Shown here in pieces: positions 7,863 through 36,723 of a DNA stretch of 64,000 bases; position 1 is the stretch's first letter, and each line of letters opens with the position of its first letter. The notes beneath the pieces were generated by a model. It was not told the DNA's origin. It searched no databases and saw only the letters and a list, made by a program, of their open reading frames with translations. The stretch comes from Candidatus Woesebacteria bacterium GW2011_GWF1_31_35. Lineage in GTDB: Bacteria; Patescibacteriota; Microgenomatia; UBA8517. Location of the stretch: assembly GCA_001029755.1 (NCBI GenBank), contig CP011214.1, positions 711,258 to 775,257 on the forward strand, read 5' to 3'. The translations under genes and the position numbers were made by a program.

Positions 7863-10016
7863 ATGAATAAACATACAAAATTATTTCTATCTAGTCTAAT
7901 ATTTCTAATTGCTTCTATAGTATATATATTTCTTCCTAGAAATTCTCTATCTGCCGAAACTTTAAGTAGTTGGACAAATTCTGCTTCAATGCCAGATATC
8001 AATGGTGTTGCTAGTCACTATTCATTTATATCTAATAATAAACTTTATATATTAGGTGGAGCTAATTCTGAAGTGATATCTAGTGGTTTATACTCAACAA
8101 TATCTCCGAACGGATTGTTATCTTCTTGGACTAACACCACCTCGCCACTTAATCAGCTTTGGCACTCTGGAACAACTTATGATAGATATGTTTATATACT
8201 TGGAGGAGCAAATTCTTCAATCCAAAACATTAAAGATGTTGTTGTTGGAATTATAGGATCAGATGGAAATATATCGTCTTGGAAAACTACAACACAGTTA
8301 CCACAAACTTTAGCACTTGGAAGTGCTATCACTTTAAACAATAGAATTTATTTTGCGGGAGGATCAACTAATCGTTTTGAATATCAAGCCTCAAGAGATG
8401 AAATATATTTTGCAACAATAAACCCCACAGATGGAACTTTAGACTCATGGACTCTCGCAGGAAATTTACCAGAACCAATGGTGGGTTTTGGAATGGTTGA
8501 AATAAATGGCTATGTTTATATTATTGGAGGCAAAAACTTATCAAATCAAATATTGGATTCCGTTCAAAGAGCCTTTGTCAATCCTGATGGTACATTGGGT
8601 AATTGGAATTCTATGTTTTCACTTCCAAAAGCAGTGACAAGATCAGGAGTAGCCAAGACAAGTAATTTACTGGTTTCTGTAGGAGGAATCACTGTCTCAG
8701 GGATTACTGACTCAGGGATTATTGATGATGTTTTTTTTGCCAAAATAAAGCCTAATGGAGAAATTGATGAATGGACAACAAGCCCTTACAAACTACCAAA
8801 AATAAATTGTTGTTCCCCACTTGTTTCTTGGAATAATCATTTATATTTAACAGGGGGACATTACGGAACTCCGTATGGTTATTATAATGATGTCTTTACA
8901 GCTAAAGTCATTTTTGACACTCCAGAATACATATCTTTAGACGTGCCAAATTTAAAACAATATGAAGGTGGTTGGCAAAATGATTTTTATGGACATACAA
9001 ATAAAACAATTAAAGATTATGGTTGTGCATTAACTTCAGCTTCAATGGTTTTGAAATTTTTTGGACACAATATTGATCCTAGAGAGTTAAACACCTGGCT
9101 AAAAGATCAAAATGATGGTTACATTAGGAATAATTTAGTTAACTGGCTTGCAATTTCAAGATACACAAAACTTCATGAATCAATATCTTCTCCAACACTT
9201 GAATATTTAAGATCATCATTTGAAGCTAATAAAATTCTTAATAATCTTCAAAACAACCTACCCACAATCGTTAAAGTTCCTGGTCATTTTGTTGTCACCA
9301 AAAGCCAAACTGAAACTTCTTTTGGAATAAACGATCCTGGATATAATGACAGAGATGAGTTATCACCTGAATATCCTGATAATCATATCCAATCCTTAAA
9401 CACCTACACACAAAGTCAAACAGATTTATCATATATGATGTTTATAGCCGATAAAGATATTACATTTAAACTTTTTGATTCTTCCAATAATCTTGTTAAT
9501 AATACCCAGACTTATATAGAAGAACCAATAAATGAATTAGACGGATCAAATAAAAGTGGGGAGCCCCTTTCAATCTTAATTTTTTCAAAACCTCCATCTG
9601 GTGAATATAGTTTAGAAATAACAGGTCCAACTGGACCATATCAATTTGATAGTTATTTATATGATGTTAACGGTAACGTAACACAAAATACATTTAATGG
9701 ATACATTTTTGATAACGAAAAAGGTACTTATTTAATTTATTTTAATGGTAATAAAAACGTAGGAGTTTCATATTCTGAAATATACAAATCCTTACAAAAA
9801 GCATTTGAAAATAAATTTATTTTAAATAAAGGAATACTAACTGCAATAAAAGCTCAAATTCAAGCCTCAGAAAAACTTATTAGTAATAGTATGATTTTTC
9901 CTTCCAAAATTATCATTCAAACCTTGATAAAACAAATCCAAAATCTTACGCCAAAATTTATTGACCCAGAATTTTCTTTATCTCTCCTGTCAGATTTGAA
10001 GTCCTTAATTTATTGA
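7863..10016 (+). CDS. secreted or anchored protein with a Kelch-type beta-propeller (about 6 blades) and a C39-like (papain-fold) peptidase domain, plus an about 250-aa C-terminal region of unknown function
   Basis: An N-terminal hydrophobic anchor is present. Six repeats carry (S/D)W(T/K)...LP and Y(I/F)xGG motifs, which are Kelch-like. DYGCALTSASMVLKFFGHNI then supplies a Cys and GHFVVTKSQTETSFGINDPGY a His and Asp/Asn, which matches the Peptidase_C39_2/YvpB-like signature. Confidence 0.6.
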   Translation: MNKHTKLFLSSLIFLIASIVYIFLPRNSLSAETLSSWTNSASMPDINGVASHYSFISNNKLYILGGANSEVISSGLYSTISPNGLLSSWTNTTSPLNQLWHSGTTYDRYVYILGGANSSIQNIKDVVVGIIGSDGNISSWKTTTQLPQTLALGSAITLNNRIYFAGGSTNRFEYQASRDEIYFATINPTDGTLDSWTLAGNLPEPMVGFGMVEINGYVYIIGGKNLSNQILDSVQRAFVNPDGTLGNWNSMFSLPKAVTRSGVAKTSNLLVSVGGITVSGITDSGIIDDVFFAKIKPNGEIDEWTTSPYKLPKINCCSPLVSWNNHLYLTGGHYGTPYGYYNDVFTAKVIFDTPEYISLDVPNLKQYEGGWQNDFYGHTNKTIKDYGCALTSASMVLKFFGHNIDPRELNTWLKDQNDGYIRNNLVNWLAISRYTKLHESISSPTLEYLRSSFEANKILNNLQNNLPTIVKVPGHFVVTKSQTETSFGINDPGYNDRDELSPEYPDNHIQSLNTYTQSQTDLSYMMFIADKDITFKLFDSSNNLVNNTQTYIEEPINELDGSNKSGEPLSILIFSKPPSGEYSLEITGPTGPYQFDSYLYDVNGNVTQNTFNGYIFDNEKGTYLIYFNGNKNVGVSYSEIYKSLQKAFENKFILNKGILTAIKAQIQASEKLISNSMIFPSKIIIQTLIKQIQNLTPKFIDPEFSLSLLSDLKSLIY

Positions 10017-25525: not shown

Positions 25526-26606
25526 ACTTACTTATATTTAATAGTATACCGCAAGACGCTAAAATCATTAAAAGAGAAGTACCACCATATGAGAAAAATG
25601 GTAAAGGAATTCCAGTTAGAGGGGTTAGTGCTGTCATTGAAGAAACGTTTAATAGAATTTGTCCACCAATCCAAGCTGTGATACCAATTGCAAGTATTTT
25701 TGAAAATTGATCAGGTGCACGAGATGCGATTCTAAATGCCTTAAAAACAAAAAAAACAAAAATCGCAATTAAAAGTATTGAACCTATAAAGCCGATTTCT
25801 TCGGAAATTGCTGCAAAAATGGAATCTGTTGCAGCTTCGGGTAAAAACAAATATTTTTGACGTGATTGACCAATTCCAAGACCGAAAAGACCCCCTGATC
25901 CCAATGCAAGTAAAATCTGTCTAATATGATAATCTTTTCCCAAAGGATCTGATGTAACTTTTAAAAAAGTTAATAATCTATCTCTCCTATATGGAGAGGA
26001 AAGAATTAAAGCTCCTACTGAAATTAATCCAATAACTAAAGATCCAAAAAAATATAGAACTGGAACGCCTGCAACAAAAATTTGAGTGATTCCAATAATT
26101 CCAACAACTAAAGTAGTACCTAAATCAGGTTGTAACATAATTAATCCACAGGAAATCGCTAAAGGTATAAAGTAAGAAATTGGTTTTTTAGAAGATTCTG
26201 AGACTCTAGCTAAATATAGCGCTAAGGTGAGTTTTACAATTTCGGAAGGTTGAAAATTAATAAATCCTATTGATATCCAACGTCTGGCTCCAAGTGCTTT
26301 TAAACTTAAGCCGGGGATTAAAACAATCATTAATAAAAATATAGAAATAAAAAATAAAGGGATTGCCAATTTTCTCCAAAAACTATAGTGAATTTTTGAA
26401 GTAATAAGTAATGCAATGATTCCAATTCCTGCCCAAACTATTTGTTGTTTAAAAAAATAGAACTTATCATTAAAAAAATTTAAGGCTTGCGGAGCTGAAA
26501 TATCAGCCACAAAAACAAGACCTAAAATAACTAATGTAATAATTGTATAAAATAACGTTTTATCAAAAGGAAGCTTTGGTTTTTGAAGTGTAAATTTTCT
26601 TCGCAT
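25494..26606 (-). CDS. ftsW: SEDS-family peptidoglycan glycosyltransferase FtsW
   Basis: RRWISIGFINFQPSEIVKL and ATDSIFAAISEEIGFIG are SEDS motifs. It lies between mraY and murG. Confidence 0.8.
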   Translation of the reverse strand: MRRKFTLQKPKLPFDKTLFYTIITLVILGLVFVADISAPQALNFFNDKFYFFKQQIVWAGIGIIALLITSKIHYSFWRKLAIPLFFISIFLLMIVLIPGLSLKALGARRWISIGFINFQPSEIVKLTLALYLARVSESSKKPISYFIPLAISCGLIMLQPDLGTTLVVGIIGITQIFVAGVPVLYFFGSLVIGLISVGALILSSPYRRDRLLTFLKVTSDPLGKDYHIRQILLALGSGGLFGLGIGQSRQKYLFLPEAATDSIFAAISEEIGFIGSILLIAIFVFFVFKAFRIASRAPDQFSKILAIGITAWIGGQILLNVSSMTALTPLTGIPLPFFSYGGTSLLMILASCGILLNISKYETKKITSRR

Positions 26607-26619
26607 TTTTATTAATACG

Positions 26620-27675
26620 TTAAATTGTAGCTAACCAGAGTCCAAAAATAGCTAAAACAATACCTGCAAGCCAGGCTCTCATTACAATTTTAGGTTCTTC
26701 CCAACCAATTGCTAAAAATGTGTGATGAATAGGAGCTAACTTAAAAATTGGTTTCTTTAAAATTTTCCAACCTAATATTTGAATTGCTGATGAAGTTATT
26801 TCTAATACAAATATTCCTCCAATCACAACTAAAGCTATAATACTACCTGTTAATAAGCCTACAACAGCAAGGGTGGCCCCAAATGAAAGTGCACCACTAT
26901 CCCCTAGCCAAATTCTTGCAGGATAAGTATTAAAGTATAAAAATGCAATTAAAGCGCCAATCCAAAGGGCAATAAAAAGAGAAAGTGGAGTATCTAAACT
27001 CCCTGCAGCTATTACTCCAAAAGCAATTAAACAAATCATCAAAAGACCAGGCGCTAACCCATCCAATCCATCTGTAATATTAAATGCATTTGTGAAAGAA
27101 ACTATTACAAACGCAGCAAACGGAACATACCAAATCCCTAGATCAAGTGTTCTTCCTATTATTGGAATATGTAATATATTAACTCCAAGAGACTTATACA
27201 TAACAAAAGAAATTATTCCAGCTAAAACCCATTGGGCAATAAATTTTTGTCTTCTGGTTAAACCAAAAGCTAAGCCTAAAACTCCCTTTGTGGGCTTTCC
27301 TAACATTTTTATATAATCATCAAGAAGCCCTAATAGTCCAAATGAAATAAAAGTAAAGAAAATAATAAAAAGTTCGATTCTTAAATTATATGCAGTCTGA
27401 ACAATAACTCCTAGATATGAACTAATTGGAAATAAAATTGCAAAAAGGAGAGTAACAACTAGAATAATTAAGACTCCTCCACCTACAGGAGTTCCTGCTT
27501 TAATGTCATGCAATTTATCAAAAAGTGGAATTTTCCCATCTCTAGGAGCCTCTTTTTTTCTAGTAAATTTAATTTTATAAAGAAAGTCAATAAAAGGAAC
27601 AACTAATGTAGAAGTTATCAAAAATGAAAAAAGAATAAGTCCCAAGGCAAGTGGTAAAAAGTTATTTGTACCCAT
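26620..27675 (-). CDS. mraY: phospho-N-acetylmuramoyl-pentapeptide transferase
   Basis: NAFNITDGLDGLA is the MraY/WecA signature, with about 10 TM helices and a conserved His-rich loop (PIHHTF). Confidence 0.9.
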   Translation of the reverse strand: MGTNNFLPLALGLILFSFLITSTLVVPFIDFLYKIKFTRKKEAPRDGKIPLFDKLHDIKAGTPVGGGVLIILVVTLLFAILFPISSYLGVIVQTAYNLRIELFIIFFTFISFGLLGLLDDYIKMLGKPTKGVLGLAFGLTRRQKFIAQWVLAGIISFVMYKSLGVNILHIPIIGRTLDLGIWYVPFAAFVIVSFTNAFNITDGLDGLAPGLLMICLIAFGVIAAGSLDTPLSLFIALWIGALIAFLYFNTYPARIWLGDSGALSFGATLAVVGLLTGSIIALVVIGGIFVLEITSSAIQILGWKILKKPIFKLAPIHHTFLAIGWEEPKIVMRAWLAGIVLAIFGLWLATI

Positions 27676-27687
27676 ACTGTATGAAAA

Positions 27688-28794
27688 TTATACCAGCTTA
27701 TCTATAAGCTTGTCTAAACCAATTGATCTTGAACCTTTAATTAATACATAAGTATCTTTTGAAAGAAGAGGTAAAAGGATTGATAGTACTTCCTTCTGGT
27801 CGTTAACTAAAAAGGTTTTACTTTTTGATTTTTTTACCTCATCTATTAAATACCTTGAAAGAATACCAACTCCTATCACTACATCAAATTTTGACTTTGA
27901 AACTTCTTTACCCACTCTTCTATGTTCCCCTTCTTCTAACTTTCCAAGTTCCAACATATCTCCCAAAACTGCAATCTTTTTATTATTTCCTGCTAATTTA
28001 TTAAAAACCCTTAAGGTAGAAAGAGTAGCTTCTGGATTACTATTATATGAATCGTCTAAAATGATAGCACCAGATTGATGTTGAAATTGAAATAATCTAT
28101 GTTTTGGATTTTGATAAGTTTTCAATCCTTTATCTATTAAATCATTTGATACTTTTAATATCTCTGCAACCTTTTTTGCCGTATTTGAATTTTGTATAGT
28201 TGGATCTACATTAGTATCAAAATAATAAACCTTTGATTTAGCTAATTTAGCCATATCTTTAGTTAATATATTTGAAGAATTTAACACTGCAAAACCATTT
28301 TCAGGTAAACTTGAAATTAATTTTCCTTTTTCTCCAGCCACTCCTTTTTCGTCACCAAAAAACTCTGTGTGGGTTGGAAAAACATTAGTAACAACTCCAA
28401 TTATTGGTCTAACCAACCAAAGATAAAAATCCATTTCATGAGGATATTCAACTCCCATTTCTAAAATTAGATATTTTGTATCTATGAAACATTTTAGAAT
28501 TGTAGATGGAATATTAAATACTGAATCAATATTTTCTTTTGACCAAACAGTATTTCCTTTAAGTTTTAAAATCCCTGCAAGCATTTCTTTGGTGGTGGTT
28601 TTTCCTGCGCTACCTGTAATACCAATAACTGTTAGACCAAAATAATTTTGCAAAATATATACATATAACTTGGCAATTCTTCTTTTGATTGGATGAAAAA
28701 ACAAATCTAGAATTACATTTTTTAGTCCAGATTTTAACCTTAGATGAACGAATGGGAGGTGTGGTCCAACCAATGATTGAAAATATTTTTTCAT
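27688..28794 (-). CDS. murF: Mur ligase, probably UDP-MurNAc-tripeptide--D-Ala-D-Ala ligase (MurF), with a short N-terminal domain
   Basis: The P-loop GITGSAGKTTTKEMLAGIL, a Mur ligase middle domain and a C-terminal domain are present. It is assigned as murF by elimination, since murC, murD and murE are identified elsewhere, and from its position before mraY. Confidence 0.65.
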   Translation of the reverse strand: MKKYFQSLVGPHLPFVHLRLKSGLKNVILDLFFHPIKRRIAKLYVYILQNYFGLTVIGITGSAGKTTTKEMLAGILKLKGNTVWSKENIDSVFNIPSTILKCFIDTKYLILEMGVEYPHEMDFYLWLVRPIIGVVTNVFPTHTEFFGDEKGVAGEKGKLISSLPENGFAVLNSSNILTKDMAKLAKSKVYYFDTNVDPTIQNSNTAKKVAEILKVSNDLIDKGLKTYQNPKHRLFQFQHQSGAIILDDSYNSNPEATLSTLRVFNKLAGNNKKIAVLGDMLELGKLEEGEHRRVGKEVSKSKFDVVIGVGILSRYLIDEVKKSKSKTFLVNDQKEVLSILLPLLSKDTYVLIKGSRSIGLDKLIDKLV

Positions 28795-28806
28795 TTTGTT
28801 TATATA

Positions 28807-29574
28807 TTATAGCTCTACTCTTTCAATTTTTTTTGATATATCTTGTCCTAAAAATAGGGCTGCTGTTTTGACAAATCTTTCATTTACATCAGTTAAAAAA
28901 TATATATCACTACCTACTTTATCATTAATATTTCTATCTGATTTTATTACATATTCATAAATAACTTTTGAAATCTCTTCAGCTGGATCAACCAATTTAA
29001 TTTTTTCTCCTAAATATCTTTTTATCTGATTTTTAATAAGTGGATAGTGGGTACAACCTAAAATTAATGTATCTATTTTTCCTTTAAAAACTAAAAAGTA
29101 CCTATCAATAAATAAATTAATTTCAGGTCCTTCTATAAATCCTTCTTCAATAAGTGGAACCAACATTGATGCATGAGCTCGAAGAGAAACTTCTTTATAT
29201 GAGCTACTATTAATAGTAGCTCTTGTGCCAACAACACCAATTTTTCCGGATTTTGTAACCTCTAAAGCTTTTTTAATTGCTGGGTCAATAACACCAAAAA
29301 CCGGTACGTTAGAATTCTTCTTTACAATATCTAATGCAAGTGAAGAAACAGTGTTACAAGCAACAACAATACAAGAAACATTTTTTGATAGTAAAAATAA
29401 AGTGTCTTCCTTTGCAAACTTTTCAATTGTTTCTTTACTTCTGGTTCCATATGGAACCCTCGCGGTATCTCCTAAATAAATTAAACTTACATTTGGTAGA
29501 AGTTTTTTGATTTCTTTTACAACTGTTAGACCACCAAGACCTGAATCAAATACTCCAATTATGAAAGGTTCCAC
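28807..29574 (-). CDS. murI: glutamate racemase
   Basis: IGVFDSGLGGLTV...YLGDTARVPYG is the MurI N-terminal signature and a second Cys region CNTVSS is present. Confidence 0.85.
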   Translation of the reverse strand: MEPFIIGVFDSGLGGLTVVKEIKKLLPNVSLIYLGDTARVPYGTRSKETIEKFAKEDTLFLLSKNVSCIVVACNTVSSLALDIVKKNSNVPVFGVIDPAIKKALEVTKSGKIGVVGTRATINSSSYKEVSLRAHASMLVPLIEEGFIEGPEINLFIDRYFLVFKGKIDTLILGCTHYPLIKNQIKRYLGEKIKLVDPAEEISKVIYEYVIKSDRNINDKVGSDIYFLTDVNERFVKTAALFLGQDISKKIERVEL

Positions 29575-30803
29575 ACTGCCTCCTTAAATTTATTTCCTCT
29601 ATCTTTATAATTTAAAAACATATCGAAAGAAGCTGCAGCAGGAGACAAAATTACTACACCATCTTTTTGTGTTATTCCAAATGCTTTTTCAACAATTTTA
29701 TCAATACTAGAAGTTCCCAAATCTATAATCTTTCCTTTAAATTTAGCATCAACAAGAGCTTTTTTAATTTGATTTCGAATTAGACCAATAAGGATAATAT
29801 TTTTGCAATTTTTTCTTTTTGAAATAATCTTGCCTAATTCTAGGTAATCTAAACCTTTATCAGACCCTCCTAATATTAATGTTTCATCCTCAGTAAATGA
29901 ATTAATAGCTGCAATAGTTGATTGTGGTCCTGTTGCGAAAGAATCATTATAAAATTTAATATCTTTAAACTTTCTAACAAATTCCAATCTATGTTCTAAA
30001 CCTTTAAAATTTTTAACTACTTCAAGGATTATTTTTTCATTAATATTTAAAACTTTAGAAACTGAAACTGCTGCTGCTATATTTTCTAAATTATGTTCTC
30101 CTCTTAAGATTAAATCTTTTTTAAATTCATTTTTTAATGTCTTTTTGGAAAAATACATAATATTTGCCTTTGTTTTTCTTGCAAAACTAGAAGAGACTTT
30201 ATATTCCTTATTTATAATTGCCCAATCTGAAGTATTTTGATATTTAACAATATTTTTCTTAGCTTCTATATATTCTTCTTTACTTTCATGCCAATCTAAA
30301 TGATCTAAAGTAATATTTAAAATAACTGCGATATCAGGACTAACCGGAAGATCAATTAATTGAAATGAGGATATTTCCATAACAACATAAGAACTACTTT
30401 TCAATTTAGGAAGTAATTCTAAAAGAGGTTTACCAATGTTTCCTCCCAAAAATACATCAAACTTTGCTTTTTTAAGTATTTCATAAATTAAGGTAGAAGT
30501 TGTTCCTTTGCCTTTTGTACCGGTAACTGCAATAACTTTTCCATTAAATTCATCAAAGAAAATATGTGTTGGAGTAGTTATTCTAATTCCATTTTCATGA
30601 ACTTTAATTAATTCCTTTTTATAAGGATAAATACCAGGCGAGCGAACTATTAAATCAAACTTTTCTAAGTTTGATAAATAATTTTTATCAAATTTTTGAT
30701 CTAATATAGTAACATAGCTTCCTTTATCTTTTAAGAATTTTTCACAATCTTGTCCTTCAAGACCATATCCAATTATTGCAACTTTTTTATCTTTATAATT
30801 CAT
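29559..30803 (-). CDS. murD: UDP-N-acetylmuramoylalanine--D-glutamate ligase
   Basis: The N-terminal Rossmann segment KVAIIGYGLEGQDCEKFL and the P-loop VIAVTGTKGKGTTSTLI are present in a 414-aa protein. Confidence 0.8.
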   Translation of the reverse strand: MNYKDKKVAIIGYGLEGQDCEKFLKDKGSYVTILDQKFDKNYLSNLEKFDLIVRSPGIYPYKKELIKVHENGIRITTPTHIFFDEFNGKVIAVTGTKGKGTTSTLIYEILKKAKFDVFLGGNIGKPLLELLPKLKSSSYVVMEISSFQLIDLPVSPDIAVILNITLDHLDWHESKEEYIEAKKNIVKYQNTSDWAIINKEYKVSSSFARKTKANIMYFSKKTLKNEFKKDLILRGEHNLENIAAAVSVSKVLNINEKIILEVVKNFKGLEHRLEFVRKFKDIKFYNDSFATGPQSTIAAINSFTEDETLILGGSDKGLDYLELGKIISKRKNCKNIILIGLIRNQIKKALVDAKFKGKIIDLGTSSIDKIVEKAFGITQKDGVVILSPAAASFDMFLNYKDRGNKFKEAVWNLS

Positions 30804-31642
30804 TTTTGTAATTTTTTAATTGATAAATTATCTGACAAATAATTATTTTTAGTAATTACACTTCTACCAAGTTCCTTCTCCGTCTTTTTTCTTGCATATC
30901 CAGCAACAGATCCACCACGATTTGCGACTTTTTTGTTTTGAATAAACCCCTTTGGTTTTTCAGTTGTTGAAATTTCAGTAGTTACTCGTTCCCCAAGCAT
31001 GGTAAAAATTAATTCTAGATCTGTCATATTATCTCTTAAGTTAATTTTTGTTTTATTTGGTATATTTTTAAGTTTTCTATATTCACTAGGGGTAATACCA
31101 AATGTAGCTTTTGATATTTCCGCTGTCAGAATTGCATAATCTAACTTATTTTTAATACCTCTCTCTTTCCATTCATCAGTTAAATTTTGACGAATTGCCA
31201 TTCCCCTTAAACGTTTATCTATCCAATCTTTGGGATACCCTTTTTGTTCATAAATACTTTTCATTCTTTCCTGTGCAAGCTCAGGATCTTCAATTTCCTG
31301 AATACGATCATTACCCACACTTGCTAACCACCGTTTGAAAGGCTCTGCATTTGGAGACGGAATTGATTGAATTATTCGAAATAAACCTTCAGTATCTGAA
31401 CAATCAGTCATCCTCATTTTATTATCATCGGCTTTTAACTTGAACTGTCGACAAATTGTCGATAGTTGTGCACCATCATTACTATTCATCCTAATTTTCA
31501 TCTTAAACCAATAATCACTTGAATCTGTACTTTTTGTTAAAATCGAAACCACATCAATAACAGAAAAATACCACTCATTTTTGTACCATTTTCGTCTTAT
31601 TTGTTTATTTTGAAAAATTACTAGACTACTATTTCTCTTCAT
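30800..31642 (-). CDS. Bro-N domain / DinD-like (DNA-damage-inducible protein D family) protein
   Basis: The N-terminus SLVIFQNKQIRRKWYKNEWYFSVIDVVSIL fits the Bro-N pattern (F..IR....E.WF.A.DVA.LL), and the C-terminal half aligns by eye to E. coli DinD (KRLRGMAIRQNL...DYAIL...LRDNMTDLELIFTMLGE). It has 4-nt overlaps with both the murC/B stop and the murD start. Confidence 0.55.
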   Translation of the reverse strand: MKRNSSLVIFQNKQIRRKWYKNEWYFSVIDVVSILTKSTDSSDYWFKMKIRMNSNDGAQLSTICRQFKLKADDNKMRMTDCSDTEGLFRIIQSIPSPNAEPFKRWLASVGNDRIQEIEDPELAQERMKSIYEQKGYPKDWIDKRLRGMAIRQNLTDEWKERGIKNKLDYAILTAEISKATFGITPSEYRKLKNIPNKTKINLRDNMTDLELIFTMLGERVTTEISTTEKPKGFIQNKKVANRGGSVAGYARKKTEKELGRSVITKNNYLSDNLSIKKLQK

Positions 31643-33774
31643 ATATTAATGTATTGTACTTCAGGTTCTAACTTTATTTTAAATTTATTATAAACATCAT
31701 TAGTAATTTCATCTGCTAATTTTTTAATATCATTAAAATTACCTTTACCTTCTGGATTTGTTAAAATCAAGGCGTGTTTATCTGAAACTTTTACGTTTCC
31801 CAATCTTTTTCCTTTCCAACCCGCTTTTTCTATTAAGTAACCTGCAGGAATTTTAAAGCTATTTTCAAATGAGTAAAATTTTATATCTTTATACATTTTC
31901 ACAAGTTCATTTTTTTTACTCAAATTAACTATTGGATTTTTAAAAAATGATCCTGCATTAGGAATTATGTCTGGATTTTCTAATTTTTCAGATCTTACTC
32001 TCAATATCTCATTTCTAATATTTTGTAATTTTAAATCAGTATCTACGTATTTTTGAAGTTTAAGTGTTACATTAGTAATAATAAACTTTTGAGAATTGTC
32101 TTTTTTCTTAAAAATACTTTCTCTATAGCCAAATCTACAATCATCTTTTTTAAATACTATAAATTTATCATTTTTAATATCATATGCAGTTAACTTAAAG
32201 AGAATATCTTTTAATTCTTGTCCATATGCTCCTATGTTTTGAATAGGAGAAGCTCCGACTGTACCAGGAATACCTGAAAGGCATTCTAATCCTTGTAAGT
32301 TTTTACTAACGGAAGTTTCAACTAATTTATCCCAAATTACGCCCGCCTCTGCTATTATTTTTGATCCGTCAACTTTTATACTATCTCCTACATATTTAAT
32401 AACTAAGCCATTAAAATCATTGTCCGATACCAAAATATCACTTCCTCCCCCTATTATAAAAATTGGTAAACTATTTTTCTTTGCAAACTTAATTTGTTTG
32501 ACCAATTCTTCTTTATTATTAACCTCTTTATAATATTTAATCTTTCCACCTACTTTCATTGTGGTTAAATCCTTAAATGAAATATTACCTTTCAAACTTT
32601 CTAGTATTTCTTTAGCCCAAAGATTACTATTTCCAGCTCCCATTACTAAAATAATATCTCCAGGTTTAATATCTTTTTTAATTATTCCTATAATTTCATC
32701 TATTGAATTAACTCCTATCGCATCTTTATGATTAGTTTCTTTTGCTACAATCTTGGGTGTTATCCCAAATGTTTTATTATCTCGTGCTTTAAAAATAGGA
32801 CCAATAATTACTTTGTCAGCTTTTTCAAAACAACTATTATATAGTTTGAATAAAGCATTGGTTCTATTAAAACCATGTGGCTCAACAATTGCCCATATTT
32901 TAGTTTTTGAATTAGCATTTTTTAAAGCTTCTAAAGTTGCTGTAATTGCGGTTGGATGATGTGCATAATCGTCATACACTTTAATTCTATTTTCCTCTCC
33001 AATTAATTCCAATCTTCTTTTAATACCTTTAAAATTTTCAAGAGAATTAATGATATTTTCTTCAGAAATATTTAATTTTTTACCTAAACAAAAAACCATA
33101 TTAGCATTTTTTTGATTATGTTCACCTAAGACTTTTAAATTAAATTTTTTATTAAAACTATCTTTTTGAGTAATTAATACTTTATCTCCTGTTAAATTAT
33201 TAATAAACTTATCAAAACTTTCTCTAAGCTGTTTTACATCTTTAAAATAATCTGGATGATCAAACTCTATATTATTAATAATTGCAATTTTAGGATAATA
33301 ATTTAGAAAATTATCATTAAACTCGTCTGCTTCTACAACAAAATATTTTCCTTTACCAAATCTATAATTTGCCTTCCATTCTGGAATATTTGCTCCTAGT
33401 ATTACTATTGGGTCAAAACCATTATCTTCAAGAAGTTTTCCTACCATTGCAGTTGTTGTTGATTTCCCATGAGTTCCTGCAATTGCAATAACAAACTTAT
33501 CCTTCATTAAATATTTACCCAAAAATTCCTGCCAAGTTATAACTATTCCCCTTTTTCTACCTTCTATTAATTCTGGATTATTTAAACTTTGGTAAAAAAC
33601 AGCAGGGGTAACAATAAGTAAATCAATATCCTTCAAATGATCTTTACTATGACCTTCTTTTTGTAAATCACAGCCTGTAACTTTATAGCCCATTTTAGAA
33701 GCTAAGGAAGCAACACCTGAAACACCACTTCCCGAAATTCCCATGAAATGAATCTTTTTAATTATTTTTTTCAT
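31639..33774 (-). CDS. murC/murB: fused UDP-MurNAc--L-Ala ligase (MurC) / UDP-N-acetylenolpyruvoylglucosamine reductase (MurB)
   Basis: Residues 1 to about 400 are MurC, with IHFMGISGSGVSGVA and AIAGTHGKSTTTAMV. Residues from about 400 to 711 are MurB, with KDLTTMKVGGKIKYY, IIGGGSDILVSD, LSGIPGTVGASPIQNIGAYGQE and RFGYRESIFK (FAD-binding fold). Confidence 0.85.
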   Translation of the reverse strand: MKKIIKKIHFMGISGSGVSGVASLASKMGYKVTGCDLQKEGHSKDHLKDIDLLIVTPAVFYQSLNNPELIEGRKRGIVITWQEFLGKYLMKDKFVIAIAGTHGKSTTTAMVGKLLEDNGFDPIVILGANIPEWKANYRFGKGKYFVVEADEFNDNFLNYYPKIAIINNIEFDHPDYFKDVKQLRESFDKFINNLTGDKVLITQKDSFNKKFNLKVLGEHNQKNANMVFCLGKKLNISEENIINSLENFKGIKRRLELIGEENRIKVYDDYAHHPTAITATLEALKNANSKTKIWAIVEPHGFNRTNALFKLYNSCFEKADKVIIGPIFKARDNKTFGITPKIVAKETNHKDAIGVNSIDEIIGIIKKDIKPGDIILVMGAGNSNLWAKEILESLKGNISFKDLTTMKVGGKIKYYKEVNNKEELVKQIKFAKKNSLPIFIIGGGSDILVSDNDFNGLVIKYVGDSIKVDGSKIIAEAGVIWDKLVETSVSKNLQGLECLSGIPGTVGASPIQNIGAYGQELKDILFKLTAYDIKNDKFIVFKKDDCRFGYRESIFKKKDNSQKFIITNVTLKLQKYVDTDLKLQNIRNEILRVRSEKLENPDIIPNAGSFFKNPIVNLSKKNELVKMYKDIKFYSFENSFKIPAGYLIEKAGWKGKRLGNVKVSDKHALILTNPEGKGNFNDIKKLADEITNDVYNKFKIKLEPEVQYINI

Positions 33775-34775
33775 TTAAGTTTTAGAATTGTATTTGCTAA
33801 TTTAAATGGATCATGTCTAAATAAATGTTCGTTTTTTAGATATCTTGATACGTTTTCATTTATTATTTTCATATTGGGAGCTATTTTTTTGCATTTTTCC
33901 TTATCTACTATTACCAAGTTTTGACCTTCTTCTTTATAAACCTTAAGGATCTCTTTGTCTAAATGATTTTTATTAACTATTAAATAATCGATAGCTTTAT
34001 TATTACCTAAATAAAAAAGAAATGATTTCAAAAAATCTGAAGCTTTGAAATTATCTGTTTCTCCTTCTTTTGTGGCTAAATTTAACACAATGATCAACTT
34101 AGCTTTTGATTTAATTATTGCTTCAGTTACACCTTCAACTAATAAATGAGGCAGGATACTTGTATAAAGATCTCCTGGAGAAAATACAATTTTATCTGCA
34201 TCTTTAATTGCATTTAAAACATCTTCATTGCTATCCACTCTTGAATCAAAATAAATTCTTATAATTCTGTCATTTGGATCAAAATTTTTATCTTTAACTC
34301 TTGTGTCAATGTTTTTTTCTCCAATTACAATATTACCTTTTTTGGTTTCTGCAACAAGTTGAACATTCGTTATAGTTGCGGGTACAATTTTAGCCATAAT
34401 TCTAAAAAGTTCTCTTTCCGCTACTATTCCCCTGTCTTGACCTGAATAAATATGATCTAATCTTGCTGTTATTAAATTACCAATTGAATGACCTTTTAAA
34501 GGTCCAGATGATTCTTCTAACCTATCATCAAAAAGTCTTTGAGCTACTTTTCTTTGATTTTCATCTTCCATTAAGGCAAGCATACAACGCCTTAAATCTC
34601 CAGGAGGCAAAACTCCCAATTCTGTTCTTAATCTTCCAGAGCTACCACCACTATCCCAAGTACTAGCAACAGCTGTTATTAATTTTGTTTCGTTTAAATC
34701 TCTAAGTCCATCAAGAAGATGAAATTGACCAGTACCACCTCCAAAAGTAACTATTTTCTGTTTATATTTAGCCAT
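33771..34775 (-). CDS. yvcK: YvcK/CofD-like gluconeogenesis-factor family protein (UPF0052)
   Basis: FGGGTG, DSGGSSGRLR, PPGDLR, GHSIGNL, SPGDLYTS and GETDNFKASD match the B. subtilis YvcK signature blocks in the same order. Confidence 0.85.
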   Translation of the reverse strand: MAKYKQKIVTFGGGTGQFHLLDGLRDLNETKLITAVASTWDSGGSSGRLRTELGVLPPGDLRRCMLALMEDENQRKVAQRLFDDRLEESSGPLKGHSIGNLITARLDHIYSGQDRGIVAERELFRIMAKIVPATITNVQLVAETKKGNIVIGEKNIDTRVKDKNFDPNDRIIRIYFDSRVDSNEDVLNAIKDADKIVFSPGDLYTSILPHLLVEGVTEAIIKSKAKLIIVLNLATKEGETDNFKASDFLKSFLFYLGNNKAIDYLIVNKNHLDKEILKVYKEEGQNLVIVDKEKCKKIAPNMKIINENVSRYLKNEHLFRHDPFKLANTILKLK

Positions 34776-36723
34776 TTATTCTTTTACTCATTTTTCTTTC
34801 TGCATTTTGTAATTGCTCTGGCGTATTAATTCCCTGCCATTCATTTGCATCAGGTAATTTATAAACCGAAACTTTTTGATTTTGGCTTAAAGCAAACTTA
34901 ATCAAATCAGTTAAATAATATTCTCCTGTCACAGGACTTTTGTTAATCTTATTAATATTTTTTCTTAACCAGTTAGATTTAAAAACATAAAGACCATCAT
35001 TTACTTCTTTTACCTTTTTTTGAGATTCATTTGCATCTTTTTCTTCAATAATTCCAATTAAATTATCATTTTTATCCCTAATAACTCTTCCTAATCCAAA
35101 TGGATTTTCTTGAATTAAACTCACGAATGTTAAAGAAGCATTTGAGTTTTTATGTGTTTCAATAACATTTTTGATTGTGGCTGGCTTATAAAAAGCACTA
35201 TCATCACCATATATTACTAAAATATCAATATATTTTAAATCTATTTTCTTTAAAGCTTTTAAAACAGAATTACCCGTGCCTAGAGTAGTTTCTTGAATAG
35301 CGTAATTGCATTCTTTCGATATTTCTCTTAATACTAAATTCCTTTTATATCCAACAACGGGAACTAAATTAATAACCCCTGCATTTCTTAAGTTTTCCAT
35401 CGAATATGAAATCATTGGTCTATCACAAATATTATGTAGAACTTTCGGCAAATCTGACTTCATCCTTGTTCCTCGACCTGCTGCAAGGATAACTCCAGCC
35501 AAATCTTTATAACCATTCAAAATATTTTTGACAAACTTTTGATCACTCCAAGGATGTTCAAAACCCCCATAAGCCATAGTTATTTCATGACCTTTTCCAC
35601 AAAAAACTAATGCATCTCCTTTTTTGGCAATCCTAATAGCATATGAAATTGCTTCACCACGTTCAGGAATACAGATATAATTTTTTGCATACTTTTTCAT
35701 TTGTTTTAAAATATCAAAGATATTTTCACTTCGAGGATCTTCTGCGGTTAAAATTGAAATGTCAGCAATTTCACCTGAAATCTTACCCATTTTAGATCTC
35801 TTTTTAATATCTCTTTCTCCAGCGCATCCAAATACTGAAATTAACCTCCCTTTGGTAATAGTTTTTAAATAACCTAAAACTGCTTCTAAAGAATCAGGTG
35901 TGTGAGCAAAATCAACAAAAATTTTAATACCAAGAGAATTTTCTATTTCTTCAAGTCTTCCGATTGGAAGTTTAAATGAATTAAGTGCGTTTTTAGATTC
36001 TTTTTCAGAAATCCCAAGTTTTTCACATACTTCAATTGCTGTCTGGGCATTTATATTATTAAAATCACCTTCCAATATTTTTAACTTTGTAGACTTTGGA
36101 CTAATAATTTGAATTTTGCAGGATTTTAAAAATGACATCTTAGTATTTTTATAATTTTTAAAAGTTTTATGATAATCAAGGTGTTCCGGAGCAATGTTAG
36201 TTAATACCCCAATGTCAAACTTGATTCCTGCAATCCTGCCTTGTTCAATTCCATGTGATGAAACTTCTAAAATTACATAATTAAATCCTTTATCAACAAA
36301 ACCCTTTAACATTTTATTTAAGGTAATTACGTCAGGAGTAGTGACATGATATCCAGGAACTGAAATAGAACTTATAAGCCCTGCCTTTTTACCTAATTTA
36401 GTTAAAATATGGTAGATTAAATGACAGGTTGTTGTCTTTCCTTTGGTTCCAGTTACTCCAATTATGGTTAATTTACTTGAAGGATTTTTGTAATATTCTG
36501 AGGCTAATTCTCCTAATTTTTCTCTCGAATTTGAAACTTTTATATAATTTACACCAGAAGCTATTTTGATATTCTCTCCGCTATGATATTCAGTTTCGCC
36601 ATAAATAATTTTTGCCCCGTTTTTAATAGCCTCATCTATATGATCATGTCCATCAGAAATTTGGCCTTTAATTGCTACAAATGTATCCCCAGATTTTATC
36701 AACCTTGAATCAAATGAAATCAT
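34768..36723 (-). CDS. murE: fused MurE (UDP-MurNAc-L-Ala-D-Glu--diamino-acid ligase) plus a GlmU-type N-terminal sugar-1-phosphate uridylyltransferase domain (no LbH acetyltransferase domain)
   Basis: Residues 1 to about 405 are MurE, with DSRLIKSGDTFVAIKG, IIGVTGTKGKTTTCHLI and an EDPR variant of the DNPR motif. Residues 406 to 651 begin LAGVILAAGRGTRMKSDLPKVLH, which is almost identical to the GlmU pyrophosphorylase signature, and end GINTPEQL. No hexapeptide repeats follow. Confidence 0.8.
   Translation of the reverse strand: MISFDSRLIKSGDTFVAIKGQISDGHDHIDEAIKNGAKIIYGETEYHSGENIKIASGVNYIKVSNSREKLGELASEYYKNPSSKLTIIGVTGTKGKTTTCHLIYHILTKLGKKAGLISSISVPGYHVTTPDVITLNKMLKGFVDKGFNYVILEVSSHGIEQGRIAGIKFDIGVLTNIAPEHLDYHKTFKNYKNTKMSFLKSCKIQIISPKSTKLKILEGDFNNINAQTAIEVCEKLGISEKESKNALNSFKLPIGRLEEIENSLGIKIFVDFAHTPDSLEAVLGYLKTITKGRLISVFGCAGERDIKKRSKMGKISGEIADISILTAEDPRSENIFDILKQMKKYAKNYICIPERGEAISYAIRIAKKGDALVFCGKGHEITMAYGGFEHPWSDQKFVKNILNGYKDLAGVILAAGRGTRMKSDLPKVLHNICDRPMISYSMENLRNAGVINLVPVVGYKRNLVLREISKECNYAIQETTLGTGNSVLKALKKIDLKYIDILVIYGDDSAFYKPATIKNVIETHKNSNASLTFVSLIQENPFGLGRVIRDKNDNLIGIIEEKDANESQKKVKEVNDGLYVFKSNWLRKNINKINKSPVTGEYYLTDLIKFALSQNQKVSVYKLPDANEWQGINTPEQLQNAERKMSKRING

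What the first reader, a model, noticed from the sequence alone, without database searches (positions are those of the whole stretch)
30800..31642. Bro-N / DinD-like gene translationally embedded between murC-murB and murD
- **Identity.** The 280-aa protein has a Bro-N-type N-terminus (FQNKQIRRKWYKNEWYFSVIDVVSIL). Its C-terminal half aligns with E. coli DNA-damage-inducible protein D.
- **Context.** It overlaps the stop of murC/B and the start of murD by 4 nt each (ATGA coupling), so it is an integral, co-translated member of the dcw operon and not an inserted cassette with its own signals.
- **Why it matters.** Bro-N/DinD proteins are normally phage- or SOS-associated. E. coli DinD modulates RecA filaments. 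A dedicated DinD-like gene inside the cell-wall/division operon suggests a built-in link between DNA-damage signalling and septal peptidoglycan synthesis, or a domesticated phage anti-repressor.
Basis: partly seen in the sequence, partly recalled or inferred. Interest (0 to 1): 0.6.

Follow-up and report, generated by a model that had tools for sequence, protein, structure and literature searches.

The report
Accessory Bro-N gene embedded in dcw operon
The gene is real and start/stop-overlapped inside the cell-wall operon as described, but it is an accessory passenger that the closest relatives lack, from a large and highly conserved family of uncharacterised DNA-binding proteins that sit inside many unrelated operons, so a link between DNA damage and cell division is not supported.

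Summary
**Observation: confirmed.**
- A 280-aa ORF (30800-31642, minus strand) overlaps the murC-murB stop and the murD start by ATGA.
- It has a significant Bro-N domain.

**Interpretation: mostly not supported.**
- The protein fails the DinD equivalog model (15.6 bits against a 242-bit cut-off). It is a full-length member of PADLOC candidate PDC-S13 / PHROG 15286. This family is 65-80% identical across many bacterial phyla and an archaeon, and is almost absent from phage genomes.
- Its helical C-terminal domain is remotely homologous to E. coli DinD and to Deinococcus DdrC, a DNA-break-binding protein. DdrC is the only significant solved-structure match.
- Family members typically sit co-directionally and tightly packed inside other operons: hsdS/hsdM-X-hsdR, cas12a-X-cas4, cas4-X-cas1, and ABC transporters.
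- Six related lineages (MurD 68-92% identical) have murC/B directly abutting murD.
- In the window the gene lies inside a ~2.9-kb low-identity recombination tract.
- A monophyletic, strongly purified clade occupies the same slot in four to five other Microgenomates lineages.
- No LexA boxes, own promoter or flanking repeats were found.

**Likely function.** A DdrC/DinD-like DNA-binding protein expressed by piggy-backing on the operon. This step is inferred, not shown.

The parts
30800..31642 (-). 280-aa gene of the Bro-N / PDC-S13 family (PHROG 15286)
   Evidence: - ORF listed.
- PADLOC PDC-S13, E=8.7e-114, aa 1-274.
- PHROG 15286, E=1.8e-94.
- More than 8000 homologues, typically 65-80% identical, across many bacterial phyla and an archaeon.
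- It retains the family-invariant residues R89, G135 and R144.
31319..31603 (-). Bro-N domain (aa 14-108): a beta-hairpin plus a winged-helix-like fold
   Evidence: - Pfam PF02498, E=2.5e-10, 41.2 bits against a 25.6-bit cut-off.
- The AlphaFold model places strands at 17-27 and 68-83 with helices between them.
- BFVD fold matches are Bro-N and KilA-N proteins.
30869..31231 (-). Helical C-terminal domain (aa ~138-258), remotely homologous to the C-terminal domains of DdrC and DinD
   Evidence: - The family profile A4 hits the DdrC chains in the PDB at E=4.5e-4, profile positions 140-254 against DdrC 114-222.
- hhalign of A4 against the DdrC C-terminal fragment: E=4.5e-5, probability 69%.
- hhalign of A4 against E. 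coli DinD: E=2.9e-5, probability 74%.
- In Foldseek against the PDB, only DdrC chains are significant.
- Model pLDDT is 70-93 in this region.
31639..31642 (-). ATGA overlap: murC/B stop codon and start codon of the Bro-N gene
   Evidence: - Seen.
- In the empty-site relatives the murD ATG occupies exactly this position. L082 reads ...AATATATGAACTAT.
30800..30803 (-). ATGA overlap: Bro-N stop codon and murD start codon
   Evidence: - Seen.
- The same ATGA junction occurs in L092, L094 and L095. L087 has TAATG.
30700..33575 (-). ~2.9-kb tract of low identity to the closest relative, covering the 3' ~1.9 kb of murC/B, the Bro-N gene and the first ~100 nt of murD. It is read as a homologous-recombination tract.
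   Evidence: Sliding nucleotide identity of the window against L082:
- 88-99% down to about 33576.
- 55-86% from 33575 to 31639.
- The Bro-N gene has no counterpart in L082.
- The first 100 nt of murD are 78% identical, then identity returns to 85-98%.
31639..33774 (-). murC-murB fusion gene, the upstream host gene
   Evidence: Pfam domains: Mur_ligase, Mur_ligase_M, Mur_ligase_C, FAD_binding_4 and MurB_C.
29559..30803 (-). murD, the downstream host gene
   Evidence: - Pfam domains: MurD-like_N, Mur_ligase_M and Mur_ligase_C.
- A source names the identical protein UDP-N-acetylmuramoylalanine--D-glutamate ligase of Candidatus Woesebacteria RIFOXYC1_FULL_31_51.

Best explanation
**What it is**
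- The ORF encodes an intact, selected protein of a very large, mainly chromosomal family. The family is catalogued as PADLOC phage-defence candidate PDC-S13 and as PHROG 15286.
- The protein has an N-terminal Bro-N DNA-binding domain.
- It has a helical C-terminal domain that is homologous to those of E. coli DinD and Deinococcus DdrC.

**How it sits in the genome**
- Members of this family usually lie co-directionally and tightly packed inside other operons, often with start/stop overlaps. The intergenic DNA of the other loci was not scanned for promoters.
- In a subgroup of Microgenomates/Woesebacteria one clade of the gene settled in the murB|murD junction.
- There it takes the place of the original murC/B-to-murD ATGA junction, so the inferred translation relay runs murC/B, then X, then murD.
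- It is an accessory gene. Its presence or absence among relatives changes by homologous recombination through the flanking mur genes. The window shows such a tract.

**Which steps are shown**
- Family membership and domain homologies.
- Embedding as a family-wide habit.
- Empty sites in relatives and the recombination tract.
- A monophyletic slot clade under purifying selection.

**Which steps are inferred**
- The protein acts as a DdrC/DinD-like, probably dimeric, DNA-binding protein that recognises DNA ends, nicks or recombination intermediates.
- It serves defence or genome maintenance rather than peptidoglycan synthesis.
- It is expressed constitutively by read-through and re-initiation from the dcw operon.
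For: - **Family membership.** PDC-S13 E=8.7e-114. PHROG 15286 E=1.8e-94. Bro-N E=2.5e-10.
- **Conservation.** More than 8000 homologues at 65-80% identity, from many bacterial phyla and Methanoperedens. 8799 clusters at the 50% level have E<1e-3.
- **DdrC and DinD homology.**
  - Foldseek E=7e-6 to 1e-3 over 179-248 alignment columns; only DdrC chains are significant.
  - Profile hit to DdrC at E=4.5e-4.
  - hhalign E=4.5e-5 against DdrC and 2.9e-5 against DinD.
  - BLASTP of DinD against the DdrC C-terminal fragment gives E=0.003.
  - DinD itself has a Bro-N domain, E=1.5e-7.
- **Embedding habit.**
  - Most neighbours in 80 loci are co-directional, with small gaps or overlaps.
  - HsdS lies upstream in 5 loci and HsdR downstream in 5. 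Cas12a lies upstream in 3-4 and Cas4 downstream in 2.
  - Named examples: cas12a-X-cas4 (L039); hsdS-X-hsdR (L011, L040); hsdM-X-DUF1016 (L022); solute-binding protein-X-permease (L028); cas4-X-cas1b.
  - PDC candidates were defined by exactly this "guilt-by-embedding" in BREX, DISARM and type I R-M systems (bioRxiv 10.1101/2024.01.29.577857).
- **Accessory status.** Empty sites occur in six relative lineages. The window shows a recombination tract.
- **Slot clade.**
  - The gene sits in the murB|murD slot in L087, L092, L093 and L094/L095.
  - These copies are monophyletic in a neighbour-joining tree without support values.
  - dN/dS is 0.04-0.15, with dS saturated.
- **No mobile-element or SOS signals.** No LexA boxes, no promoter excess and no flanking repeats.
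- **Not a phage gene.** It matches 4 of 50,697 phage records and 22 of 72,556 plasmids.
Against: - No member of PDC-S13 has been tested, so both the defence role and the DNA-break-binding role are inferences.
- The structural model is only moderate: mean pLDDT 70.9, pTM 0.49.
- The N-terminal domain alone gives no sequence-level hit to DdrC.
- DdrC and DinD similarity is remote, at 12-24% identity.
- The slot clade has persisted at this junction long enough for MurD to diverge to 61-74% identity. The passenger is as conserved as, or more conserved than, its essential neighbours. This leaves room for a real functional tie to the operon.
- The direction of the recombination event is unresolved: gain in the window lineage or loss in the sister. 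The window's MurB part is closest to alleles from empty-site lineages.
- Occupied lineages were found through the Bro-N protein, so the ratio of occupied to empty sites is biased.
Confidence: 0.6

Rival explanations
1. The gene is a dedicated, functionally integrated component of the dcw operon. It couples DNA-damage sensing to septal peptidoglycan synthesis or division, acting as a checkpoint-like factor.
For: - The gene overlaps murC/B and murD and lies in the centre of the dcw cluster.
- Its characterised remote relatives, DinD and DdrC, are DNA-damage-induced (PMC6590174; PMC9303277 and PMC11347143).
- A monophyletic clade keeps the same slot, with a conserved stop/start junction to murD, in several divergent Microgenomates. 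That clade is under strong purifying selection.
- Other Woesebacteria carry a second antirepressor-like gene (ORF6N) in the mraY|ftsW slot.
Against: - All six related lineages sampled through MurD lack the gene.
- The same family is embedded in the same tightly packed way in R-M, CRISPR and transporter operons, so embedding does not indicate a functional tie.
- No LexA or Cheo boxes occur in the window.
- ATGA junctions are the commonest junction type in this genome.
Confidence: 0.07
2. A domesticated phage anti-repressor or transcription regulator. It would be a Bro-N protein captured from a prophage that now regulates host genes or counteracts a repressor.
For: - Sources name the protein "phage antirepressor".
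- There are weak PHROG hits to anti-repressor Ant families, E~0.008, and to a "transcriptional regulator" family, E=8.6e-6.
- Fold matches in BFVD are phage Bro-N, KilA-N and "repressor domain" proteins, E~1e-5.
Against: - The family is almost absent from sequenced phages: 4 of 50,697 records, all unannotated fragments of 4-7 kb below 50% identity.
- No prophage genes flank it in the window.
- The C-terminal domain matches DdrC and DinD, not the Ant or KilA-C models. No such Pfam hit appears up to E=1.
- 65-80% identity across phyla is not what fast-evolving phage regulators usually show (own knowledge).
Confidence: 0.1
3. A purely selfish operon hitch-hiker. The gene persists because, once it is spliced into the translation relay of an essential operon, only a precise deletion is tolerated. 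It spreads by linkage with, and recombination through, conserved flanking genes and gives the host no benefit.
For: - It is embedded in unrelated operons, including housekeeping ones such as an ABC transporter and dcw.
- Its distribution among close relatives is patchy, with a recombination tract through the flanks.
- Payne et al. discuss a selfish benefit of embedding.
Against: - Purifying selection is very strong, with near-invariant residues along the whole protein across domains of life. This implies a conserved biochemical activity.
- No transposase, nuclease or homing-endonuclease domain and no terminal repeats were found that could drive its own mobility.
- Precise losses evidently do occur.
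Confidence: 0.15

Closest known systems
PADLOC phage-defence candidate PDC-S13 (also PHROG 15286); candidates from Payne et al., bioRxiv 10.1101/2024.01.29.577857
   Same: - The HMM match is full length: E=8.7e-114, aa 1-274.
- It is a single gene of about 280 aa with a Bro-N N-terminus.
- Relatives are embedded co-directionally inside type I R-M and CRISPR loci, which is how PDC candidates were defined.
   Different: - Here the host operon is the essential dcw cell-wall and division cluster, not a defence system.
- The candidate family itself has no demonstrated function. No text on PDC-S13 was found in the paper or its held supplements.
DdrC, DNA damage response protein C of Deinococcus radiodurans (PDB 7qvb, 7udi, 8u0g)
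   Same: - The C-terminal domain matches at sequence-profile level: E=4.5e-4 and 4.5e-5.
- The architecture is collinear: a beta-hairpin plus winged-helix N-terminal domain, a linker helix and a helical-bundle C-terminal domain.
- Shared motif residues, by my reading of the alignment: window W140, R144, R151, R203, D204, E210 and L211 align with identical DdrC residues.
- DdrC's DNA-contact residue Arg-164 aligns with the nearly invariant Lys-189.
   Different: - Identity is only 12-14%.
- The N-terminal domain gives no sequence-level match.
- DdrC is about 231 aa, is damage-induced from its own regulon, and is described as restricted to Deinococcus (PMC11347143).
- Dimerisation, asymmetry and binding to nicks or double-strand breaks are untested for this family.
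E. coli DinD (PcsA), SOS-inducible protein; NCBIfam NF008573
   Same: - Both have a Bro-N N-terminal domain (DinD E=1.5e-7).
- The lengths are similar: 274 and 280 aa.
- The C-terminal domains are homologous at profile level: hhalign E=2.9e-5, probability 74%.
   Different: - It is not an orthologue. It scores 15.6 bits against the 242-bit equivalog cut-off, and BLASTP gives E=1.8.
- dinD is a stand-alone LexA-regulated gene (PMC6590174). The window gene has no LexA box and no promoter signal above chance.
- DinD's reported inhibition of RecA filaments (own knowledge: Uranga et al. 2011, J Biol Chem) is untested here.
PrrC-type genes embedded in type I R-M operons
   Same: Both are single accessory genes nested co-directionally between genes of a host operon. 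The family is found at hsdS|hsdR and hsdM junctions.
   Different: - There is no sequence or fold relationship, and no ABC-ATPase or anticodon-nuclease domain.
- A guard mechanism activated by anti-restriction proteins is only an analogy.

Membership tests
Pfam Bro-N (PF02498) | The domain HMM scores above the gathering threshold. | tested here: met
   41.2 bits against a 25.6-bit cut-off, E=2.5e-10, aa 14-108, covering profile positions 1-92 of 96.
DinD equivalog (NCBIfam NF008573) | The whole-protein score reaches the curated equivalog cut-off. | tested here: not met
   - 15.6 bits against a 242-bit cut-off.
- BLASTP against E. coli DinD gives E=1.8.
DinD equivalog (NCBIfam NF008573) | LexA/SOS regulation, shown by an SOS box upstream. 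| tested here: not met
   - There are 0 matches to CTGT-N8-ACAG and 0 to GAAC-N4-GTTC in the 64-kb window.
- The organism's true LexA motif, if it has one, is unknown.
DinD/DdrC-type C-terminal domain superfamily (proposed here) | Profile-level and fold-level similarity of the helical C-terminal domain. | tested here: met
   - hhalign E=2.9e-5 against DinD and 4.5e-5 against DdrC.
- hmmsearch E=4.5e-4.
- Foldseek E=7e-6.
DdrC family | N-terminal domain homology at sequence level. | tested here: not met
   - An N-terminal-only profile (A5) finds no DdrC chain up to E=10.
- The similarity is at fold level only.
DdrC family | An asymmetric domain-swapped homodimer that binds pairs of nicks or double-strand breaks and compacts DNA. 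| not testable with these tools
   This needs biochemistry and structure determination. The DdrC properties are taken from PMC9303277 and PMC11347143.
PADLOC PDC-S13 | Full-length match to the candidate's HMM. | tested here: met
   E=8.7e-114, aa 1-274 against profile positions 1-272 of 286.
PADLOC PDC-S13 | Embedded in, or associated with, a known defence system. | tested here: not met
   - In the window the neighbours are mur genes.
- The feature is met in relatives: hsdS-X-hsdR, cas12a-X-cas4 and cas4-X-cas1.
PADLOC PDC-S13 | Demonstrated anti-phage activity. | not testable with these tools
   PDCs are untested candidates.
Core dcw (division and cell wall) cluster gene | Conserved presence at the same position in related genomes. 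| tested here: not met
   - The gene is absent in six lineages with MurD 68-92% identical.
- It is present only in a patchy set: L087, L092, L093 and L094/L095.
Phage anti-repressor (Ant/KilA-C type Bro proteins) | Residence in phage or prophage genomes, with an Ant or KilA-C C-terminal domain. | tested here: not met
   - It matches 4 of 50,697 phage records, all below 50% identity.
- No Ant or KilA-C Pfam hit appears up to E=1.
- PHROG Ant families match only at E~0.008, over the Bro-N part.
Mobile element (IS, integron cassette or homing-endonuclease gene) | Terminal repeats, an attC-like site, or a nuclease or transposase domain. | tested here: not met
   - No flanking repeats beyond A/T-rich chance matches.
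- There is no intergenic DNA at either junction.
- No such domains were found.

The most novel reading that the evidence does not exclude
The PDC-S13 Bro-N family, E. coli DinD and Deinococcus DdrC form one pan-prokaryotic superfamily of DNA-break or DNA-end-binding proteins. DdrC's "Deinococcus-unique" lesion-trapping mechanism would then be widespread. This would explain why these genes sit next to DNA-cutting or DNA-end-processing machinery: HsdR, Cas12a and Cas4-Cas1. In a subgroup of small-genome Microgenomates, one clade would have been fixed in the dcw operon to give growth-coupled, constitutive expression of such a break sensor or nucleoid protector.
Probability: 0.25. Interest if true: 0.6.

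Novelty: new member of a known kind. Interest (0 to 1): 0.4.

Why it matters
- **For this window.** An attractive story, an SOS-like factor built into the division operon, turns out to be an accessory passenger. The case shows that translational coupling and zero intergenic space do not prove functional integration.
- **For the family.** This is one of the most conserved uncharacterised prokaryotic protein families, and it is already flagged as defence candidate PDC-S13. There are now two experimentally studied remote relatives to guide assays: DdrC, which binds nicks and double-strand breaks, and DinD, which inhibits RecA filaments.
- **For DdrC.** If the homology holds, DdrC is not a Deinococcus invention.
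- **For "guilt-by-embedding".** Microgenomates dcw operons recurrently carry genes of the kind found embedded in R-M systems: Bro-N at murB|murD and ORF6N after mraY. Embedding therefore also happens in essential housekeeping operons, which weakens embedding as evidence of shared function.

Tried and rejected
- **Direct DinD orthology** was rejected.
- **Sequence search of the PDB with the single protein** found nothing significant. Only the broader profile A4 found DdrC.
- **An N-terminal-only profile (A5) against the PDB** gave no DdrC hit. The tempting equivalence of R16 and R89 with DdrC's lesion-contact Arg-14 and Arg-81 is therefore unverified.
- **The afdb50 fold library** was unavailable.
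- **LexA and Cheo box searches** found none.
- **The promoter and terminator scan** found nothing above chance near the gene.
- **The flanking-repeat search** found nothing beyond A/T-rich chance matches.
- **Composition** gives no foreign signature. GC is 0.31 and GC3 0.20, against 0.26-0.34 and 0.12-0.19 in the operon.
- **The metagenome scan with MurD** returned only 15 loci and added one informative empty site, L097.
- **Donor of the recombination tract.** The window's MurB part is closest to empty-site alleles (69-70%), not to any sampled occupied lineage (38-54%). Direction and donor remain unresolved.
- **Literature.** Nothing was found on PDC-S13, on a DdrC-DinD link, or on DinD embedded in R-M loci.
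Full report
**1. Observation**

- The ORF at 30800-31642 (minus strand, 280 aa) exists and begins MKRNSSLVIFQNKQIRRKWYKNEWYFSVIDVVSIL.
- The upstream gene (31639-33774) is a murC-murB fusion and the downstream gene (29559-30803) is murD.
- Both junctions are 4-nt ATGA overlaps.
- The gene lies in the middle of a ~20-kb dcw cluster, all on the minus strand: mraW, ftsI-type PBP, murA, murE fused to a nucleotidyltransferase, a CofD-family gene, murC/B, X, murD, murI, murF, mraY, ftsW, murG, ftsA, ftsZ.
- The identical protein and context belong to Candidatus Woesebacteria RIFOXYC1_FULL_31_51. The identical protein was read on 23 contigs grouped as the same gene neighbourhood, so this is not an assembly artefact.
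- ATGA overlaps are the commonest junction type in this genome, at 8 of 46 co-directional pairs in the window.

**2. Identity of the protein**

- Pfam Bro-N is significant: E=2.5e-10, aa 14-108.
- The DinD equivalog model is far below its cut-off, at 15.6 against 242 bits. BLASTP against E. coli DinD is not significant, E=1.8.
- The protein is a full-length member of PADLOC candidate PDC-S13 (E=8.7e-114) and of PHROG 15286, which has no known function (E=1.8e-94).
- The family is very large and very conserved.
  - More than 8000 hits were found. Proteins 65-73% identical come from Thermodesulfobacteriota, Bacteroidota, Gammaproteobacteria, Nitrospirota, Spirochaetota, Planctomycetota, many candidate-phyla-radiation (CPR) groups and the archaeon Methanoperedens.
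  - 8799 clusters at the 50% level have E<1e-3.
  - Conservation runs from residue ~10 to ~260, with dozens of invariant residues.
- It is not a phage family. Only 4 of 50,697 phage records match, all unannotated 4-7 kb fragments below 50% identity. Only 22 of 72,556 plasmids match.

**3. Fold and remote homology**

- An AlphaFold model was built from 56 homologues. Mean pLDDT is 70.9 and pTM 0.49; the C-terminal half is mostly at 70-93. It shows a beta-hairpin plus winged-helix N-terminal domain and an all-helical C-terminal domain, aa ~100-258.
- DdrC of Deinococcus radiodurans is the only significant solved-structure match.
  - Foldseek gives E=7e-6 to 1e-3 over 179-248 alignment columns.
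- A broader family profile (A4, 64 sequences, 35-71% identical) supports this at sequence level.
  - It finds DdrC in the PDB at E=4.5e-4, profile positions 140-254 against DdrC 114-222.
  - hhalign against the DdrC C-terminal fragment gives E=4.5e-5.
  - hhalign against E. coli DinD gives E=2.9e-5.
- DinD against the DdrC C-terminal fragment gives BLASTP E=0.003 over the same motif. DinD has its own Bro-N domain.
- The DdrC papers describe a Dachshund-like winged-helix N-terminal domain and a four-helix-bundle C-terminal domain. DdrC forms an asymmetric, domain-swapped dimer that traps pairs of nicks or double-strand breaks. The papers state that DdrC has no homologues outside Deinococcus (PMC9303277, PMC11347143).
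- An N-terminal-only profile did not find DdrC, so N-terminal similarity rests on fold alone.

**4. The family's genomic habit**

- In 80 loci from other phyla the gene is mostly co-directional with both neighbours. Gaps are often 0-60 nt, or the genes overlap by 1-4 nt.
- The neighbours are very diverse.
  - The commonest recognisable ones are HsdS upstream (5 loci) and HsdR downstream (5 loci).
  - Next are Cas12a domains upstream (3-4 loci) and Cas4 downstream (2 loci).
  - Housekeeping genes also appear, including SHMT, RuvB, NrdD, MutS and ABC-transporter parts.
- Verified examples:
  - cas12a-X-cas4 (L039).
  - hsdS-X-hsdR (L011, L040).
  - hsdM-X-DUF1016 (L022).
  - Solute-binding protein-X-permease (L028).
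  - cas3-ATPase-cas4-X-cas1b-cas2 on Arcobacter cloacae plasmid pACLO.
- PDC candidates were defined by this "guilt-by-embedding" in BREX, DISARM and type I R-M systems. They are untested.
- Tight, co-directional embedding is therefore a property of the family, not evidence that the dcw operon needs it.

**5. Relatives of the window genome**

- Six lineages found through MurD have murC/B directly abutting murD. Five of them use the same ATGA overlap and one has a short spacer.

| MurD identity | Loci |
|---|---|
| 92% | L082-L084, L096 |
| 78% | L085/L086 |
| 74% | L114 |
| 73% | L115/L116 |
| 70% | L117/L118 |
| 68.5% | L097 |

- In the empty site the murD ATG sits exactly where the Bro-N ATG sits in the window.
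- Identity against the 92% relative changes abruptly along the operon.
  - It is 88-99% down to window position ~33576.
  - It is 55-86% across the remaining 1.9 kb of murC/B.
  - The Bro-N gene has no counterpart in the relative.
  - The first 100 nt of murD are 78% identical, and then identity returns to 85-98%.
- This is a ~2.9-kb homologous-recombination tract centred on the gene.
- Its direction is unresolved: gain here or loss in the sister lineage. The window's MurB part is closest to empty-site alleles (69-70%) rather than to any sampled occupied lineage (38-54%).

**6. The slot clade**

- The closest Bro-N homologues (72-80% identical) all lie between murB, or murC/B, and murD. They are L087, L092, L093 and L094/L095.
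- The MurD proteins in those genomes are only 61-74% identical to the window's.
- These five proteins form one clade in a neighbour-joining tree, computed without support values, that also contains 76 proteins from other contexts.
- Their junction with murD is conserved, as ATGA or TAATG. The upstream junction varies.
- dN/dS is 0.04-0.15 with saturated dS, and GC3 matches the host.
- The insertion is therefore old, maintained by selection, and patchily distributed.
- No LexA or Cheo boxes, no excess of promoter-like sites and no flanking repeats were found.

**7. Interpretation**

- *Shown:* the gene is an accessory member of the PDC-S13 / Bro-N family with a DdrC/DinD-type C-terminal domain. 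It is embedded in the dcw operon as its relatives are embedded elsewhere, and its presence or absence changes by recombination through the flanking mur genes.
- *Inferred, about 50%:* it is a dimeric DNA-binding protein of the DdrC/DinD kind that recognises ends, nicks or recombination intermediates. Expression piggy-backs on the operon by termination and re-initiation.
- *Less certain:* its role is defence-related or genome maintenance.
- *Hint only:* the family recurs next to HsdR, Cas12a and Cas4-Cas1, which cut DNA or process DNA ends. This fits an end-binding activity.
- A functional link to peptidoglycan synthesis or division is not excluded, but nothing found here supports it (about 7%).

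**8. Verdict**

- The gene is a new member, in a new host operon, of a known but uncharacterised candidate family.
- Interest is moderate. It comes mainly from the family's extreme conservation, from the apparently unreported DdrC-DinD-PDC-S13 relationship, and from the recurrent embedding of such genes in Microgenomates dcw operons.

Noticed in passing
L114:7620-8254 (+) and L115/L116:7675-8236 (+); the window counterpart slot is 26606-26620: Woesebacteria relatives with MurD 73-74% identical lack the Bro-N gene. They carry a 298-aa ORF6N-domain (PF10543) gene directly after mraY in the same dcw operon. This is a second, unrelated antirepressor-like passenger in another slot. The window has only a 13-nt gap between mraY and ftsW.
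   Followed up: partly
Family level: window 30869-31231 (C-terminal domain) against PDB 7qvb/7udi/8u0g and L091:7761-8582 (E. coli dinD): DdrC is described in its structural papers as having no homologues outside Deinococcus. Here it appears to be a divergent member of a superfamily that includes E. coli DinD and the pan-prokaryotic PDC-S13 family. No paper in the searchable library links them.
   Followed up: partly
window 28794-28807 (murI/murF junction); L082:7007-7942, L085:7009-8034, L117:6071-7099: Relatives carry ddl (D-Ala-D-Ala ligase) between murI and murF. The window has only a 12-nt gap there, and no ddl homologue occurs anywhere in the 64 kb.
   Followed up: partly
L039, L052, L064 (Treponema/Spirochaetota) and L112 (Arcobacter cloacae plasmid pACLO): Homologues sit inside or beside CRISPR adaptation modules. 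L039 and L064 have cas12a-X-cas4. L052 has Cas12a upstream, and its downstream gene was not identified. pACLO has cas3-ATPase-cas4-X-cas1b-cas2. In these loci the gene is next to Cas4.
   Followed up: partly
window 31639-33774, 34768-36723, 33771-34775; proteins P0177, P0184, P0185, P0208, P0233, P0239: The mur genes here show unusual fusions.
- murC is fused to murB.
- murE is fused to a GlmU-like nucleotidyltransferase.
- A CofD/YvcK-family gene lies between them.
- Some relatives instead have about 700-aa proteins that combine MurD-like and MurB domains.
- L087 and L092 have an unfused murB, and the murB of L092/L093 is a different, longer type.
   Followed up: no
window 33172-33594 against L082: MurC/B protein identity to the closest relative is 95% in the first 60 aa and about 70% afterwards. 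The window's MurB domain shares a 29-aa deletion with L097 only. This points to a mosaic allele history of murC/B, independent of whether the Bro-N gene is present.
   Followed up: partly
window 7863-10016 (+): A 717-aa protein combines Kelch/beta-propeller repeats with a Peptidase_C39-like domain. It is unrelated to the finding.
   Followed up: no
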